A DNA stretch of 35,406 nt from Hyphomicrobiales bacterium (GTDB lineage Bacteria > Pseudomonadota > Alphaproteobacteria > Rhizobiales > Aestuariivirgaceae): assembly GCA_031376985.1 (NCBI GenBank), contig JANMEM010000013.1, forward strand, positions 1-35,406. The letters are read 5' to 3'. The position numbers and the translations under genes were made by a program. Shown piece by piece: positions 4,018 to 28,453 of the stretch. The notes under the pieces were generated by a model, which saw nothing but the letters and a program-made list of their open reading frames with translations, made no database searches and was not told the origin of the DNA. Positions within the stretch are counted from its first letter, which is position 1; the number at the start of each line of letters is the position of its first letter.

Positions 4018-5577
4018 ATGACAAATGCCCTCCATGACAAAATTCTGATTATCGATTTTGGTTCTCAAGTCACGCAGCTCATCGCGCGTCGCGTGCGCGA
4101 ATTGGGGGTTTATTCTGAGGTCGTGCCTTATCAGAAAGCAGAAGCGGCATTCCATGCCATGCAGCCAAAAGCGGTCATTCTTTCAGGCGGGCCGGACTCA
4201 GTCACGAGAGTGGGTTCTCCACGTGCAGCTGACGTGGTGTTTCAATCAGGCTTGCCAATCCTGGCTATCTGCTATGGCCAGCAAACCACAGCCGTGCAAT
4301 TGGGCGGTGTTGTGGAAGGCGGGCACGCCGCAGAGTTTGGTCGTGCTGATATCGAGATCAAAGCGCAGAGTGCGTTGTTTGATGGTTTGTGGACCGTTGG
4401 TGAACGACACCCGGTTTGGATGAGCCACGGCGACCGTGTTACACAGTTGCCAGAAGGCTTCACAGTCAAAGCCGTCTCAGAAAATGCACCTTTTGCCATT
4501 GCGTCCGACGAAGCGCGTCGCATCTACACCACCATGTTCCACCCTGAAGTTGTGCACACGCCGGATGGTGCGAAACTGATTTCGAATTTTGTTTTGAAGA
4601 TTGCAGGCTGTCGGCAGGACTGGACCATGGCCTCATTCCGGCAGGAGGCGATTGATCGGATTCGTGCGCAAGTCGGCAAGGGCAGGGTGCTGTGTGGATT
4701 GTCGGGTGGGGTAGATTCATCTGTCGCGGCGGTTCTCATTCACGAGGCAGTTGGTGATCAGTTGACTTGCGTGTTCGTTGACCACGGCTTGATGCGGATG
4801 GACGAGGCCAAGGAAGTAGTGTCGATGTTCCGCGAGCATTATAATTTGCCGCTGGTGCATGTGAATGCGGCAGAGATGTTCATCACCGCACTTGAAGGCG
4901 AAGTTGACCCCGAGACAAAACGCAAAACCATTGGCCGTCTTTTTATTGAAGTATTCGAAGCTGAAGCCAAGAAGTTGGGCGGAGCGGATTTTCTGGCGCA
5001 AGGCACTTTGTACCCAGACGTCATCGAAAGCGTTTCGTTCACGGGTGGTCCATCCGTCACCATCAAGTCACATCACAATGTCGGCGGGCTGCCTGACCGC
5101 ATGAACATGCAGCTCGTCGAACCCTTGCGCGAACTGTTCAAGGATGAAGTGAGAAAGTTGGGGCAAGAGCTTGGATTGCCTGAGAAATTCGTAGGTCGTC
5201 ATCCGTTTCCTGGACCAGGTCTTGCGATACGTTTGCCAGGCGGCGTCACACGCGAGAAGCTTTTGATTCTGCAAAAAGCTGATGCCATCTACATCGATGA
5301 AATTCGCAAAGCCGGATTGTACGATAAAATCTGGCAAGCCTTCTCCGTGCTACTGCCGGTGCAGACAGTCGGCGTCATGGGCGATGGCCGCACCTATGAT
5401 CGCGTGCTGGCGCTTCGTGCGGTCACTTCAGTTGATGGCATGACGGCAGATTTCTATCCCTTTGATATGAACTTTCTCGGTCGTGCTGCAACACGCATCA
5501 TCAATGAAGTGAAGGGGATTAACCGCGTGGTCTATGATGTCACAAGCAAGCCACCGGGGACGATCGAGTGGGAATAA
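4018..5577 (+). CDS. guaA: GMP synthase (glutamine-hydrolysing)
   Basis: [44 protein letters not shown]-terminal [10 protein letters not shown]. Confidence 0.99.
5566..5573 (+). mobile_element. Putative attL core (GAGTGGGA) of a guaA-integrated genomic island
   Basis: 8-mer in the last codons of guaA, followed by AT-rich DNA, arm-type repeats, a P4-like integrase and alpA. This is the known layout of guaA-associated islands. Confidence 0.75.
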
Positions 5578-5849: not shown

Positions 5850-5892
5850 TGATCAAGGAATGGCGAATTCTTTGGTTGATGAGGCACTGCCG

Positions 5893-7134
5893 ATGCTGAC
5901 TGATCTGGCGCTTAAAAAACTGAAATTAAAGGACAAATCCTACAAGATCGCGGATCGCGACGGTATGTATGCCTTTGTCACAAACACAGGGCAGGTCACT
6001 TTCCGCTACGACTACCGTCTCAACGGTCGTCGAGAGACGCTTACGATTGGTCGTTACGGTGATGATGGAATGACGCTCTCAATAGCGCGCGAACGCTGTG
6101 CAGCAGCACGGAAGATGGTGGCGGAAGGAGAGTCCCCGGCACTTGAAAAGCAGCGCGACAGAAGGAAACAGCTGATCGAGCATAGCTTTGGTGCTTTAGG
6201 GCAGTTGTGGCTCAAAGATGCTACGATGGCAGACAGCACGCGTTCAATGCGGAAATCGATTTTTGATCGTGATATTTTGCCGTTCTGGAAGCAGCGCCTT
6301 CTTACTGAGATTACACCAGATGACTTGCGACAGCTCTGCGCGAAGGTAAAAGATAGGGGTGCTCCTGCCACGGCTATTCATGTGCGGGATATTGTCAAAC
6401 AGATATTTTCTTACGCTATCCTTCATGGACAAAAAGTTGCCAACCCTGCTGATGAAGTTGGCCCTGCTTCTATCGCAACATTTCAACCAAAAGACCGTGC
6501 CCTGTCTGCACCCGAAATTCGCATCATGTTTCAGCTTCTTGAACATGTTGCCACGCTGCCAACCATTCGAATTGGCCTTAAGCTTATTCTACTCACGATG
6601 GTGAGAAAGAGCGAACTTCAAGATGCAGTTTGGAGCGAAGTTGATTTCGAAAATGCGGTTTGGTCTATTCCGAAAGAACGAATGAAGCGATCCAAGGCAC
6701 ATAATGTGTATCTTTCGCAGCAAGCACTCGATATTCTTATTGCGCTCAAAACATGCGCAGGAAATTCAAGGTATCTCCTCCCGTCACGTTACGACGCCGA
6801 TGCACCCATGTCTCGCGCGACCTTTAACAGAATAACGTCGGCGATAGCCGTTAGCGCAAAGCAAAAAGCACTTCCGCTTGAGCCATTCACCGTTCACGAT
6901 CTGCGTCGTACCGGATCGACGCTTCTGAACGAATTGGGTTTTAATCGAGATTGGATTGAAAAGTGCCTTGCCCATGAGGAGGGTCGTTCATCCCGTGGTG
7001 TCTACAACAAAGCTGAATACGAGCAGCAACGTCGGCATATGATGCAAGAATGGGCCGACATCATTGATGCGTGGATTGTGGGCAAAAATCATAGTCCCAC
7101 GCTCTACCCACCATCAATGCAAATGCTCGCCTGA
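5893..7134 (+). CDS. P4-like tyrosine recombinase/integrase with N-terminal arm-binding domain
   Basis: MLTDLALKKLK..YKIADRDGMY arm domain. Catalytic residues MVRKSE, HDLRRT, LAH and VYNKAEY all present. GAGG RBS before the ATG at 5893 (ORF track 5860). Confidence 0.95.
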   Translation: MLTDLALKKLKLKDKSYKIADRDGMYAFVTNTGQVTFRYDYRLNGRRETLTIGRYGDDGMTLSIARERCAAARKMVAEGESPALEKQRDRRKQLIEHSFGALGQLWLKDATMADSTRSMRKSIFDRDILPFWKQRLLTEITPDDLRQLCAKVKDRGAPATAIHVRDIVKQIFSYAILHGQKVANPADEVGPASIATFQPKDRALSAPEIRIMFQLLEHVATLPTIRIGLKLILLTMVRKSELQDAVWSEVDFENAVWSIPKERMKRSKAHNVYLSQQALDILIALKTCAGNSRYLLPSRYDADAPMSRATFNRITSAIAVSAKQKALPLEPFTVHDLRRTGSTLLNELGFNRDWIEKCLAHEEGRSSRGVYNKAEYEQQRRHMMQEWADIIDAWIVGKNHSPTLYPPSMQMLA

Positions 7135-7192
7135 GATTGTAAGTAGTCTATATGGCTGCGCACCCCCGAATATTCTTTTGGCGAAATTGATA

Positions 7193-7489
7193 TCATGTTC
7201 GTACCGGACGAAATTTGCGTTGGCGTACATCAGGAAATGGCGGCCGCTTGGTTTCAGAAATTATTGAATTTTGACGACGTAGCTCTACCCAGTCTTCGAC
7301 CTCAATTAAACTCCATACCACGCAGCGCGGTGACAAGTTGAAACGTTTCGGAAACTCTCCGCGTTGTTCCATTTGATAGATAGTGGTGTCGGCAAGAGGC
7401 ACTATCTTCCGAAGTTCACATTTCCGAATTGTTTGCTGGATTGAGCGCGGCACGATCGCGTTTGGTCTTTGAGCCTTGAAGTCTTTCAT
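7193..7489 (-). CDS. alpA: AlpA family regulator / recombination directionality factor
   Basis: IRKCELRKIVPLADTTIYQMEQRGEFPKRFNLSPRCVVWSLIEVEDW. AAGAGG RBS before the ATG at 7489. Convergent with the integrase. Confidence 0.85.
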   Translation of the reverse strand: MKDFKAQRPNAIVPRSIQQTIRKCELRKIVPLADTTIYQMEQRGEFPKRFNLSPRCVVWSLIEVEDWVELRRQNSIISETKRPPFPDVRQRKFRPVRT

Positions 7490-7729
7490 ATTGCAAACCT
7501 CTTGGTGAAGAGTGCGAACTAGGCATTCTTCAAAAGCTAATAAGACATCACATATCGGAAAAACTTGCAGGCTCTTCAATTGGAAATGGCGGGATAAAAC
7601 GGGTATGACAGTACGTGTCTGGCCCGCGCTCTCAATTTGTAGACAGTACAAAAATCATCCAGAGTTTGAGTTCTCGAGTGCAAAATATGTGCAGCAACGG
7701 CTGGGTAATCCCCCCAAAAACTATTCGCT

Positions 7730-25146: not shown

Positions 25147-26694
25147 ATGGACGACGGAATTATTATTGGCATTGATGCCGGAACATCGGTGATGAAATCT
25201 GTCGCGTTTACCTGTGATGGCAGGCAACTGGCTGTTGCAGCCATTCCCAATCACTATGTGACTTTGCCTGATGGTGGCGTCGAACAGGATATGAACCTTA
25301 CCTGGGTTGATGCGGCAGCCACACTTCGCCAACTTGGAGATATTATTCCAGATCTCGCGTCTCGCGTGATTGCAATATCTGTTACGGCACAGGGCGATGG
25401 TTTATGGTTGATCGACAAGGCGGGTGAGCCAGTGGGGCCTGCTATCATCTGGCTGGACAACCGTTGCGCTCCAATTGTTGATGGCTATGTTGATACAGAA
25501 CACTACGCCGCCCATTACGAGCGTACAGGAACCGGTCTGACTGTTGTGCAGATGAGCGGCAAGCTTGCCTGGATGCAAAGCAACAAGCCCGAAATTCTGG
25601 CCAAGGCAACTCACGCCTTCCATTGCAAGGACTGGATCTATTTCAAACTGACAGGGGATCGGGTCACCGATCCGTCGGAGGCCAACTGTACGTTTGGCAA
25701 CTACAAGACCGATACTTGTCAGCCGGATATTCTTGATCACTTGGGAGCAGGCAGTGCCAGGCAGCTTCTGACTCCGGTTGTTGATGGCACACGAGACTGC
25801 GGCGACCTGACTGCGGCTGCGGCGAAAGTGACAAACCTGAAGGCCGGGACGCCGATTTGCCTGGGCTTTGTGGATTATGTCTGCTCTGGCTTGGGCGGTG
25901 GATTGTTCGATGCTTCAGGCGAAACAGGTTGCTCCATCATTGGATCCACGGGCATGCACATGTGTCTTCGGACCGACATGAACGACGTCCAGCTAAATTC
26001 TGAAAAATCCGGGTTCACCGTCAGTTTTCCGGCACCGGGCATGGTAGCACAAATGCAATCCAATATGGCGGCTACATTGAATATCGACTGGTTACTCGAT
26101 GTGGCGATCGGCATATTGTCAGACTACGGATTAAATAGGAGCCGGACTGATTTGCTGACAGGTCTCGACGACAAGATTCTGGCGCGCGAGCCCGCCAAGC
26201 TGTTGTACCACCCCTATATTTCATGGGCCGGTGAACGTAGCCCGTTCATGGACACGGCGGCGCGGGCCATATTCAACGGGCTTGATACCACGGTTGATTA
26301 TTTCGACATGATGCGAGCCGTGTTCGAAGGCCTCGCTTTCGCGGCACGGGATTGTTACGTGGCCATGGGGTCGATACCGAAGGAGATCCGCGTCACGGGT
26401 GGGGCTGCGCGGTCCAAGGCTCTGCGCTTGATCATGGCGAGTGTGCTGAATGCTGACATCCGGACTGTGTCGCGCGAGGAGACGGGGGCGGCTGGTGCCG
26501 CGATGATAGCAGCGGTGCAGCAGCGGATTTTCCCGGATATGGCGGCCTGCGCCAAGGTGTGGGTTGATCCGCATCTGGGCGCATTGACCAAGCCTGATGC
26601 CGCTTTGGCCGCACGGTATGACAAGGTTTTTCCGCTTTATGTCGCAGCCCGCCAAGCCATCAGGCCGATTTGGAAGAATTTGCGCGAAGTCTGA
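25147..26694 (+). CDS. FGGY-family kinase, erythritol kinase EryA-like
   Basis: IIIGIDAGTSVMKSVAF, TAQGDG.WL, HCKDWIYFKLTG, IGSTGMH, SNMAATLNIDW, GERSPF, TGGAARS. Confidence 0.88.
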   Translation: MDDGIIIGIDAGTSVMKSVAFTCDGRQLAVAAIPNHYVTLPDGGVEQDMNLTWVDAAATLRQLGDIIPDLASRVIAISVTAQGDGLWLIDKAGEPVGPAIIWLDNRCAPIVDGYVDTEHYAAHYERTGTGLTVVQMSGKLAWMQSNKPEILAKATHAFHCKDWIYFKLTGDRVTDPSEANCTFGNYKTDTCQPDILDHLGAGSARQLLTPVVDGTRDCGDLTAAAAKVTNLKAGTPICLGFVDYVCSGLGGGLFDASGETGCSIIGSTGMHMCLRTDMNDVQLNSEKSGFTVSFPAPGMVAQMQSNMAATLNIDWLLDVAIGILSDYGLNRSRTDLLTGLDDKILAREPAKLLYHPYISWAGERSPFMDTAARAIFNGLDTTVDYFDMMRAVFEGLAFAARDCYVAMGSIPKEIRVTGGAARSKALRLIMASVLNADIRTVSREETGAAGAAMIAAVQQRIFPDMAACAKVWVDPHLGALTKPDAALAARYDKVFPLYVAARQAIRPIWKNLREV

Positions 26695-26703
26695 TTTTTA
26701 TCC

Positions 26704-26737
26704 TTGACAAGGCGAATATACTGTTCTATGTTTGTTC
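26704..26737 (+). promoter_or_regulatory. sigma70 promoter overlapped by an alphaproteobacterial LexA (SOS) box
   Basis: TTGACA (26704-26709), 17 bp, TATGTT (26727-26732). GTTC-tatgttt-GTTC (26723-26737) is an exact GTTC-N7-GTTC box. Confidence 0.8.
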
Positions 26738-26739
26738 TA

Positions 26740-26945
26740 ATATTGCTGATCAGGTCATGGACGAGACGTACCAAAACAATCGTCCGCCTCCGCTGGAGGT
26801 ACCTAACCGGGTGGGACGCCCGGCGGCATCTGCGAAGGTTTCGGGCGTGACGACGCCTGATGCCTTCGTAAACCCCTGATAAGGGTTCGGGCGAGAGTTG
26901 GGCCGCTCATCACTCCGGCCAAGCGACCCGCGGGGTGGTCGTGTT
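26740..26945 (+). ncRNA. Candidate structured non-coding RNA (family not recognised)
   Basis: Seven consecutive hairpins directly downstream of the LexA-boxed promoter. Several G-U pairs work only on the + strand. Confidence 0.6.
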
Positions 26946-27003
26946 GCGATGTTGAACGGGATATTTGCGTGTGGTTGTGGCGTTTATGATATCAAAATCT
27001 GTC

Positions 27004-27037
27004 TTGCATAAAAATTCAGATAGTGTATAAAAATGCC
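27004..27037 (+). promoter_or_regulatory. Promoter of cluster II with tandem candidate SorC-family operators
   Basis: TTGCAT (27004-27009), 16 bp, TATAAA (27026-27031). Repeats TGCATAAAAATTCA (27005-27018) and TGTATAAAAATGCC (27024-27037). Confidence 0.6.
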
Positions 27038-27055: not shown

Positions 27056-28453
27056 ATGGCACCTGCACATACATTGTCTGATCCGACGGACCTCGATGGT
27101 CTGCGCCGCTTTCTGAAAGCGGAAGATGTTGAATCGCGGTTACTGCCTTTGGAAATGTTGCGGGTTGAGATTTCCGCTGACGCGCATTTGAAGCTGGAGG
27201 CAGCGGTAGCAGAGGCGCTTCCCGCACGGGAACGTGCCGCGATCGTTCTTCTCACAGACACTTCGGCGATCATGCGCGGCGCGCAAAATCTTGGCACGCT
27301 TGTGCAGTCGCAGCTCGTATCTCATAGCGTGAAGACTGTCATTCTCGACGGTGGACACGCAACGCTGCATGCTGACGAGTTAACAATCGACGTTGCCGCA
27401 GAGGCTGTGAAAGGCGCTGACCTCATCATCACAATCGGCTCCGGCACTATGACCGATGTGGGCAAAATGGCGGCCACACGCAATGGCGGCATTCCACAGA
27501 TCGTAGTGCAAACTGCGGCATCGGTTGATGGCTTTACCGATAATGTGTCGGTAATTTTGCGAAACGGTGTCAAACGTACTGTGCCCTCGCGCTGGCCGAC
27601 CATTGTTCTTGCCGACACGACGACGATTGGTGGCGCACCACGCGAATTGAATACGTCCGGTTTCGGTGAGGCGATTTCACTTTTTACCGCTCCTGCCGAT
27701 TGGTACCTCGCCAATCTAGTCGGCCTCGACTACACCTTTCACCCGGCCTCGATGGAACTGCTGAAAGCGGCCGCAGCTGAACCACCGACTTGGGCTGCGG
27801 GTGTTGCGACGGGTGATGCGACAGCCATCCACGAATTGACCAAGCTTCTTGCGTTGCGTGGAATAGTCTCGGGCGTTTCCAATACGACTGCATGCCTGTC
27901 GGGTGTTGAACATGTGATCAGCCATATGTTGGACCTGCACCACGCAGCCCACCACCAACCCATTGGCCTGCATGGTGCACAAGTTGGTGTGGCAACGCTG
28001 GTGGCGACCAAGTTGTGGCGTCGGGTGATTGATGGTGATTTGGTTCAGCCTGCACGATTGAAAAAGCCGGATGCTGCAATTTTGGAAGCGCGGGTCCGCA
28101 AATCCTTCGGACATCTTGATGCGTCCATCGCCGAAGAGTGTCTGCGCGATTGTCTGAAGAAGCAGGCGCTGATCGAACGGAATTGGACACGCTTTGTGTC
28201 AGTCGTTCAGAACTGGAAACAGCATTGTGCTGAGTTCGACAAGATGGTGCAGCCGCCGGAAAAATTGCGGCCTGCATTGGTGGCCTCTGGCGCGCCCGCA
28301 ACATTTGATAAACTCAACCCGTCGATCACACCGGACCTTGCCCGCTGGGCTGTTTCCAATTGTTTTGTCATGCGCAACCGCTTCAACCTTGTTGATCTGC
28401 TGGACCTCATGGGATTGTGGACTGATGAGATGGTGGATTGGGTGCTGGCATGA
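27056..28453 (+). CDS. sn-glycerol-1-phosphate dehydrogenase-like (AraM/EgsA; DHQS/Fe-ADH superfamily) protein
   Basis: IGSGTMTDVGK, TAASVDGFT, SGVEHVISHMLD, LHGAQVGV. GAGGT RBS before the ATG at 27056. Confidence 0.85.
   Translation: MAPAHTLSDPTDLDGLRRFLKAEDVESRLLPLEMLRVEISADAHLKLEAAVAEALPARERAAIVLLTDTSAIMRGAQNLGTLVQSQLVSHSVKTVILDGGHATLHADELTIDVAAEAVKGADLIITIGSGTMTDVGKMAATRNGGIPQIVVQTAASVDGFTDNVSVILRNGVKRTVPSRWPTIVLADTTTIGGAPRELNTSGFGEAISLFTAPADWYLANLVGLDYTFHPASMELLKAAAAEPPTWAAGVATGDATAIHELTKLLALRGIVSGVSNTTACLSGVEHVISHMLDLHHAAHHQPIGLHGAQVGVATLVATKLWRRVIDGDLVQPARLKKPDAAILEARVRKSFGHLDASIAEECLRDCLKKQALIERNWTRFVSVVQNWKQHCAEFDKMVQPPEKLRPALVASGAPATFDKLNPSITPDLARWAVSNCFVMRNRFNLVDLLDLMGLWTDEMVDWVLA

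What the first reader, a model, noticed from the sequence alone, without database searches (positions are those of the whole stretch)
26695..26945. LexA-boxed promoter followed by a ~200-nt multi-hairpin segment: candidate SOS-induced ncRNA between two sugar operons
Seen: TTGACA-17-TATGTT with an exact GTTC-N7-GTTC (26723-26737) over the -10. Then back-to-back stems: GGACGA/TCGTCC (26759-64/26780-85), GCCTCC/GGAGGT (26786-91/26795-800), CCGGGTG/CGCCCGG (26807-13/26817-23), a 16-bp hairpin GCGAAGGT-t-TCGGGCGT-gacg-ACGCCTGA-t-GCCTTCGT (26832-69), AACCC/GGGTT (26871-87), GGCCG/CGGCC (26901-20) and GCGACC/GGTCGT (26923-42). Several G-U pairs favour a + strand RNA over a DNA palindrome. Established: GTTC-N7-GTTC is the alphaproteobacterial LexA site. 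Inference: no DNA-repair gene is nearby and the downstream operon has its own promoter and operators (27004-27037), so the SOS promoter most likely makes a stand-alone structured RNA. I cannot assign it to a known family.
Basis: partly seen in the sequence, partly recalled or inferred. Interest (0 to 1): 0.9.

Follow-up and report, generated by a model that had tools for sequence, protein, structure and literature searches.

The report
SOS-switched mobile double-pseudoknot RNA cassette
A 300-base insert made of a DNA-damage-type promoter and a conserved folded sequence with no protein gene sits at unrelated sites in a few Aestuariivirga genomes; it likely makes a double-pseudoknot RNA when DNA is damaged and likely moves as a unit, which would be an undescribed kind of small RNA-only mobile element.

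Summary
The -35/-10 promoter with a GTTC-N7-GTTC box is kept at the same spacing in all 10 homologues with an intact 5' end. The ~215-nt segment covaries (26 of 52 pairs with two-sided changes) and has no Rfam match. Comparison revises the fold: a 5' pseudoknot, a four-way junction and a probable 3' pseudoknot. No reading frame is conserved. It was found in 9 of 151 genomes of the genus and nowhere outside it. It is an insertion: 25 of 28 orthologous kinase loci lack it, the three filled ones are not a clade (AU p 1e-5), and other copies sit behind unrelated genes. Several unrelated LexA-boxed structured families share this layout in the genus. No terminal repeats, target duplication, guide or mobilising enzyme were found. 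Transcription, LexA binding and movement are untested. Best reading: an SOS-inducible, non-autonomous mobile RNA gene, working like the ssr9 hitchhiker of Pseudomonas putida but not a member of that family. The scan had not seen this sequence; it had noted similar LexA-boxed RNA repeats in two other genomes.

The parts
25147..26694 (+). Host gene upstream: FGGY carbohydrate kinase; the cassette abuts its TGA stop
26692..26703 (+). Left edge of the cassette (TGA plus T-tract); same junction in 4 copies, one of them behind an unrelated gene
26704..26732 (+). Sigma-70-type promoter: -35 TTGACA 26704-09, -10 TATGTT 26727-32
26723..26737 (+). LexA-type operator GTTC-N7-GTTC over the -10
   Evidence: same motif upstream of lexA and recA; motif named in PMC8565304
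26739..26955 (+). Predicted non-coding RNA, about 215 nt; start inferred from the -10, end from conservation
26753..26785 (+). 5' H-type pseudoknot: 26753-56 with 26765-68 (invariant, first pair broken in this copy) and 26759-63 with 26781-85 (two covarying pairs), A-rich loop
26788..26897 (+). Four-way junction closed by the long-range stem 26788-93/26891-97; arms 26797-831 (two stacked stems), 26832-69 (long hairpin), 26874-85
26901..26951 (+). 3' domain: stem 26901-20, stem 26923-42, and a probable second pseudoknot between loop 26906-15 and 26944-51 (weak in this copy)
27004..27034 (+). Host promoter and direct repeat of the downstream operon; the dehydrogenase gene it precedes follows the kinase stop closely at 21 of 25 empty sites
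27056..28453 (+). Host gene downstream: iron-containing (glycerol-1-phosphate-type) dehydrogenase

Best explanation
The segment is a ~300-bp insert made of a LexA-boxed promoter and a conserved, non-coding, covarying fold; it likely makes a double-pseudoknot RNA only when DNA damage inactivates LexA, and it likely spreads as a non-autonomous DNA unit, promoter included, into sites just behind host genes with the help of an unidentified enzyme encoded elsewhere. Shown by calls: the insertion, the conserved promoter and box, the covarying structure, the lack of a conserved ORF, the unrelated sites. Inferred: transcription, LexA control, both pseudoknots, horizontal movement. Least certain: what the RNA does. 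I favour a role in the cassette's own persistence or spread, as a protein-binding scaffold made when RecA filaments, single-stranded DNA and breaks are present. Movement must be at DNA level, or from a read-through transcript of the host gene, because the promoter lies outside its own transcript yet travels with it.
For: Structure: 93.8% of cells paired and 26 of 52 pairs with two-sided changes, 0 of 500 shuffles, slid controls 31-45% (that alignment was fitted to the model). On a plain MAFFT alignment, 25 of 65 pairs, 0 of 500. RNAalifold alone predicts the same core, 23 of 43 pairs two-sided. The only two broken pairs of 52 in the window copy (26768, 26801) carry the pairing base in a contig from another study that differs at 7 of 1301 bases. 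Promoter and box in 10 of 10. Insertion: 25 of 28 readable kinase loci are empty, and 12 of 13 readable loci at a second host gene. The filled kinase loci are not a clade, p-AU 1.2e-5. The promoter spacer is 11 of 13 identical between G000 and G116, whose kinase genes share 32% at four-fold sites, p 1.6e-4; the family mean is 31%. A sister family has copies 91-95% identical, starting 12-19 bp upstream of the -35, at separate loci of one 99%-complete genome. Precedent: ssr9 (PMC12288879).
Against: No mobilising enzyme tracks the family in 5 carrier genomes: reverse transcriptase 0 of 5, TnpB 0 of 5, IS110 2 of 5, Y1 transposase 4 of 5, multicopy 'MDW' ORF 2 of 5. No consistent terminal inverted repeat or target duplication. 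Copy number is low: 1 per carrier, and 2 or 3 in G000. The spacer excess is strong for one pair only; the other two give p 0.33 and 0.04. One ancient gain with many losses, or transfer by recombination in the kinase 3' end, is not excluded (G000-G169 excess z about 2). Strong purifying selection on the fold fits a host-useful RNA equally well. Only 11 related sequences are in hand, so covariation counts are inflated by kinship.
Confidence: 0.5

Rival explanations
1. A host-beneficial SOS-induced RNA (regulator, decoy or RNA toxin, for instance binding S1 or ribosomes through its pseudoknots) that is passed around passively by homologous or illegitimate recombination and has no mobility of its own.
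For: Fold and operator are conserved down to about 50% identity. One copy per genome in 8 of 9 carriers. Slight excess identity in the last 70-150 nt of the kinase for one filled pair. Pseudoknots bind S1 in the LexA-controlled tisB mRNA (PMC7708055, abstract).
Against: Not found in 142 of 151 genomes of the genus searched. At least seven unrelated host sites. Sister families duplicate within single genomes. The window copy carries pair-breaking changes.
Confidence: 0.27
2. The RNA is itself catalytic or a template (a self-cleaving or splicing ribozyme, or RNA copied into DNA at SOS-induced breaks) and mobilises the cassette from a read-through transcript of the upstream gene.
For: Two pseudoknots and invariant junction bases. 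The upstream gene is co-oriented in 9 of 10 copies, and 4 copies abut its stop codon. No DNA-transposon ends.
Against: No match to any Rfam ribozyme or intron. No reverse transcriptase found in 5 carriers. One copy has a divergent upstream gene.
Confidence: 0.12
3. A type I toxin-like mRNA or leader-peptide transcript (tisB/dinQ-like): SOS promoter, 5' pseudoknot, sequestered Shine-Dalgarno sequence, small protein.
For: LexA box, 5' pseudoknot, and a GGAGG paired inside the fold. Patchy distribution.
Against: No start codon or frame is shared across the 11 rows; the ATG of the 40-codon ORF is AGG in 5 of 10, and 1-nt indels occur. Downstream DNA is unrelated, and the next gene is convergent in 5 of 8 readable cases.
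Confidence: 0.06
4. A DNA-level hairpin element (REP- or MITE-like) whose structure matters in single-stranded DNA, the promoter being incidental.
For: Intergenic insertion behind genes. A 12-of-15 inverted repeat brackets the window copy.
Against: That repeat is marginal (5 of 100 shuffles) and no such repeat exists in 7 of 9 copies. The promoter is kept in 10 of 10. Strand-biased G-U pairs 44 against 9. Long-range and pseudoknot pairing.
Confidence: 0.05

Closest known systems
ssr9 / MITEPpu9 of Pseudomonas putida, an sRNA gene that hitchhikes on the IS110-family element ISPpu9 (PMC12288879; abstract and passages read)
   Same: Small RNA gene with its own promoter, no protein, patchy among relatives, at several chromosomal sites, proposed to move with a transposase supplied in trans.
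   Different: ssr9 is bounded by copies of the IS ends, inserts into REPs and is complementary to an IS antisense RNA. Here no IS ends or partner IS were found, my REP patterns hit 0 of 10 upstream and 0 of 9 downstream flanks, the promoter carries a LexA box, and the RNA has a covarying pseudoknotted fold.
tisB/istR-1 type I toxin mRNA of E. coli (PMC7708055; abstract and outline read)
   Same: DNA-damage-induced, highly structured transcript with a 5' pseudoknot.
   Different: No conserved ORF; no antitoxin RNA was looked for beyond a promoter scan.
IS110/IS1111 bridge (seek) RNAs (described in PMC12288879, passages)
   Same: RNA of about 200 nt tied to an element without terminal repeats and with an apparent site preference.
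   Different: No adjacent recombinase; no cognate complementarity between RNA and flanks (p 0.72 and 0.89); own full promoter rather than a junction promoter.
Ornate bacterial ncRNAs such as OLE, ROOL, GOLLD, HEARO/omega RNA, raiA (names and properties recalled)
   Same: Multi-stem, pseudoknotted, found by covariation.
   Different: No Rfam match; smaller; LexA-boxed; found in one genus only; no associated gene.
Bacterial Y RNAs with Rsr/Ro60 (recalled)
   Same: Structured RNAs linked to DNA damage.
   Different: No TROVE gene found in G000 (85% complete); no Rfam Y RNA match; the 5'-3' closing stem is not kept outside one subfamily.

Membership tests
Alphaproteobacterial LexA regulon | GTTC-N7-GTTC operator overlapping the promoter, conserved in homologues | tested here: met
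   10 of 10; also upstream of lexA and recA in G000
Alphaproteobacterial LexA regulon | LexA binding and induction by DNA damage | not testable with these tools
   needs EMSA and expression data
Any Rfam family | Score at or above the gathering threshold | tested here: not met
   window; four divergent homologues
Classical MITE | Terminal inverted repeats | tested here: not met
   marginal 12-of-15 repeats in 2 of 9 copies, at different offsets; none in 7
Classical MITE | Target-site duplication | tested here: inconclusive
   no consistent direct repeat, but no near-identical empty allele was available
IS110-dependent sRNA module (ssr9/MITEPpu9 type) | Ends copied from a co-resident IS110 element | tested here: inconclusive
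   IS110 found in 2 of 5 carriers; the RNA core model does not hit those loci; cassette ends were not aligned to IS ends
IS110-dependent sRNA module (ssr9/MITEPpu9 type) | Circular intermediate that depends on the transposase | not testable with these tools
   only assembled contigs were available
Bridge/seek RNA | Loops complementary to target and donor DNA | tested here: not met
   longest exact match to own flank no better than to others' flanks; split short patches were not tested
Type I toxin mRNA | Conserved small ORF | tested here: not met
Y RNA | Rsr/TROVE gene adjacent or in the genome | tested here: inconclusive
   not adjacent; not found in an 85%-complete genome
Retron or group II intron RNA | Linked reverse transcriptase | tested here: not met
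   none adjacent; PF00078 in 0 of 5 carriers
TnpB/omega RNA | Cognate TnpB or IscB | tested here: inconclusive
   PF07282 in 0 of 5; IscB not searched
Cis-regulatory leader or riboswitch | Conserved, co-oriented downstream gene | tested here: not met
   downstream genes unrelated; 5 of 8 readable are convergent

The most novel reading that the evidence does not exclude
This is one family of a new class of SOS-triggered, RNA-only selfish elements: promoter-plus-RNA cassettes, at least four unrelated families in this genus, whose pseudoknotted RNA actively directs its own copying into preferred sites by recruiting host damage-repair or recombination machinery, with no element-encoded protein.
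Probability: 0.2. Interest if true: 0.95.

Novelty: new variant of a known kind. Interest (0 to 1): 0.72.

Why it matters
Bacterial SOS regulons are described as sets of protein genes plus a few toxin mRNAs and integrases (my knowledge). Here LexA-type promoters recur in front of several unrelated, folded, non-coding sequences that behave as insertions. If they are transcribed and mobile, they add a route by which RNA-only elements tie their activity to DNA damage and by which ready-made SOS promoters are scattered through a genome. Repeated use of one site behind a kinase gene hints at targeted insertion by a 300-bp unit, which would be of interest as a tool. The family is small enough to synthesise and test in Caulobacter or Sinorhizobium, which use the same class of LexA box.

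Tried and rejected
Homologue searches without result: PLSDB plasmids and INPHARED phages by blastn; IMG/VR patterns (the one hit lies inside a 472-aa ORF that I read as a capsid gene and does not match the model); metagenome pattern, 4 hits, all coding look-alikes. Rows dropped as chance: G110 (24.7 bits, coding), G444 and G440 (20-22 bits), and the short blastn hits in G024, G045, G133, G153, G067, G108, G127, G141 (G127 and G141 not inspected, same 24-base stretch as the two that were). Genome searches with RNA models score only 15-20 candidates per genome, so remote members can be missed. No RNA holder listed among sequencing runs: no evidence either way. The 5'-3' closing stem of the single-sequence fold holds in 5 of 9 rows only and competes with the 3' pseudoknot. 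Guide-to-flank complementarity, terminal repeats and a displaced gene end (1 of 3 at p 0.02, a control nearly as high) gave nothing consistent. REP flanking was not seen with my patterns, though they missed REP-like hairpins visible by eye after two copies. Sister families are not hit by the model. The multicopy 'MDW' ORF as mobiliser: not found in G000, G160 or G009; no Pfam or NCBIfam match; helical model, pLDDT 77, no Foldseek match and best Z 6.0, which tells nothing. Literature: ten searches listed no paper on a LexA-boxed mobile structured RNA, judged from listings and abstract starts. The supplements of PMC2864571 hold no 'LexA' or 'SOS'; the supplement of PMC5737381 could not be read and may bear on novelty. 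The library lacks most subscription papers.

Full report
Observation. The promoter hexamers, the GTTC-N7-GTTC box and all eight stems are at the stated coordinates. The + strand folds better than 198 of 200 shuffles (z -3.0). A lone box or a lone promoter match is at chance level, so the case rests on comparison. There is no Rfam match at the gathering threshold, and only noise at E up to 10.

Host and motif. Records that carry the conserved core are titled Aestuariivirga or unnamed Alphaproteobacteria. PMC8565304 names GTTC-N7-GTTC as the alphaproteobacterial LexA motif (two passages read). In this genome the motif lies 71 and 46 bases upstream of ORFs that are lexA and recA. The flanking genes are an FGGY kinase and an iron-type dehydrogenase in a sugar cluster downstream of guaA, an integrase and an AlpA gene.

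Homologues. blastn and a covariance model gave 11 sequences: three in G000 and one each in G009, G029, G089, G100, G116, G142, G160 and G169. That is 9 of 151 genomes of the genus, after dropping one coding false hit. Two of the G000 rows (C286, C409) end at contig edges, overlap and may be one locus in two strains. G000 is an 85%-complete bin with two guaA genes, and the window's guaA is nearly identical to that of G100, so binning is uncertain. Nothing was found in 85 genomes of 19 other genera of the family or in the other genera among 150 genomes of the order; 150 genomes of the class gave two weak hits that I dropped as chance. Identities run from 97% to about 50%. All 10 rows with a 5' end keep TTGAC, a 13-nt spacer and the box, while the spacer itself averages 31% identity.

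Structure. Comparison gives a 5' H-type pseudoknot (26753-85); a long-range stem (26788-93 with 26891-97) closing a four-way junction with three arms; and a 3' domain of two stems. On the plain alignment 25 of 65 hand-chosen pairs change on both sides (0 of 500 shuffles). On the model-fitted alignment it is 26 of 52, with 93.8% of cells paired against 31-45% for slid partners. RNAalifold, given no structure, predicts the same nested core. The first pseudoknot stem is invariant, so it is compatible with the data but not proven by covariation. The loop of stem 26901-20 pairs with the 3' end in 7 of 8 rows tested; own loop against own tail beats swapped pairs (permutation p 0.016). Three rows were not tested there: one truncated, two missed by my pattern. 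G-U cells outnumber A-C cells 44 to 9, which fixes the + strand. The window copy has two broken pairs and a weak second pseudoknot. A contig from another study, 7 differences in 1301 bases, has the pairing base at both broken positions; the weak loop is also seen in another run. This copy may be decaying. With 11 related sequences these counts overstate independence.

Not a coding or leader element. No start codon or frame is shared; the ATG of the 40-codon ORF is AGG in 5 of 10 rows. Upstream genes differ across at least seven sites and are co-oriented in 9 of 10; I read them as the kinase, sarcosine oxidase gamma, fliP, mfd and others (labels recalled from the translations). Downstream genes are unrelated and convergent in 5 of 8 readable cases.

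An insertion that recurs. I fetched the 30 best-ranked kinase loci from the 89 genomes with a match; two were cut by contig ends. Of 28, three carry the cassette. Of the 25 empty ones, 21 have the dehydrogenase gene 45-198 bases after the stop. So 26695 to about 26990 splits one conserved cluster. In a tree of the 30 kinase genes the three filled loci fall apart, the window's gene pairing with an empty sister at full support, and a single clade is rejected (p-AU 1.2e-5). The promoter spacer of G000 and G116 is 11 of 13 identical although their kinase genes are saturated at four-fold sites (32%; p 1.6e-4); the other two pairs are weaker (p 0.33 and 0.04). At a second host gene 1 of 13 readable loci is filled, with the same junction at the TGA. 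This points to movement between lineages with a preferred site. Ancient gain with many losses, or transfer by recombination, remains possible.

A class, not a one-off. TTGAC followed by the box occurs up to 12 times per genome in the genus. Of 72 such promoters fetched from a hand-picked set of genomes, 4 belong to this family, 33 to four other clusters that look non-coding and folded (13, 10, 6 and 4; the last two share a motif), 17 drive a multicopy ~234-residue basic ORF, 7 a leaderless gene, and 11 fall in pairs or singletons. Covariation was not counted for the sister families. They share a left edge about 12 bases upstream of the -35 and are not hit by this family's model. One has copies 91-95% identical at separate loci of a 99%-complete genome, promoter included. 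The motif of another was found in 3 of 7 genomes of the genus and in none of 393 other genomes of the order. Two unchecked notes of the scan describe similar LexA-boxed RNA repeats in other genomes; neither this family nor one sister matched them by sequence.

Mechanism. No reverse transcriptase or TnpB was found in five carriers; IS110, Y1 transposases and the multicopy ORF occur in some only. There are no consistent terminal repeats, duplications or guide matches. I commit, at about even odds, to a non-autonomous mobile RNA gene: silent under LexA, transcribed after DNA damage, folded into a protein-binding double-pseudoknot RNA that serves its own spread or persistence, and moved as DNA by an enzyme encoded elsewhere. 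The nearest described case is ssr9 of P. putida, an sRNA gene that forms transposase-dependent circles (PMC12288879, abstract and 12 passages). This cassette works like it on present evidence but is not shown to be a member: no IS ends, no partner, and a LexA operator instead. The main rival is a host-useful SOS RNA spread passively.

Verdict. A real, undescribed RNA family (no Rfam match; ten literature searches without a description, one relevant supplement unread), narrow in range, function untested. Interest 0.72.

Noticed in passing
G000 contigs C437, C488, C514, C566, C417 (L063-L067); also G099, G098, G001, G011: Second LexA-boxed folded family of about 430-450 nt, at least 4 promoters in this genome; no Rfam match.
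   Followed up: partly
G000 C242, C246 (L068, L069); G160, G100, G099: Third family of about 480 nt with a GGAGG-ATG near its 5' end and an apparent loop-loop pairing. Near-identical copies lie at separate loci of G160, often beside REP-like hairpins; the C242 copy looks cut by an IS-like sequence.
   Followed up: partly
L081, L082, L087, L091, L092, L096, L099, L103, L106, L140, L209, L210, L212, L214, L219-L221: Short (~130 nt) LexA-boxed families sharing a CTGATTGACATCGTGAA-like motif; found only in this genus among 401 genomes of the order.
   Followed up: partly
L101, L107-L126, L147-L152 (G014, G021, G169, G089, G100): Multicopy LexA-boxed gene for a ~220-250-residue basic helical protein (starts MDW, ends DTS/DSS); about 9 copies among the promoters fetched from G014, 2407 homologues, no Pfam or NCBIfam family, no fold match; often preceded by a REP-like hairpin. 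Possibly a selfish element in its own right.
   Followed up: partly
G000 C156:13940-14398 (L004) and orthologues: Conserved leaderless ~140-residue ORF whose ATG follows the LexA box by 1-2 bases, at a fixed locus; probably a core SOS gene of the genus, not identified.
   Followed up: no
window 4018-5577 and G000 C221: Two guaA genes in the bin; the window's copy is about 100% identical to that of G100 and 81% to the second copy, which suggests mis-binning in one of the two genomes.
   Followed up: no
window 5860-7651: Tyrosine integrase and AlpA gene directly after guaA: a guaA-anchored island that appears to carry the sugar clusters.
   Followed up: no
L060, L061, L053: Three copies of the cassette lie within about 1.5 kb of type II toxin-antitoxin-like genes (labels recalled from translations); probably shared insertion hotspots.
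   Followed up: no
L128 (G099 C16), L208 (G160): Further LexA-boxed sequences without an obvious ORF that fit none of the clusters; L208 looks like a degenerate copy of the third family.
   Followed up: no
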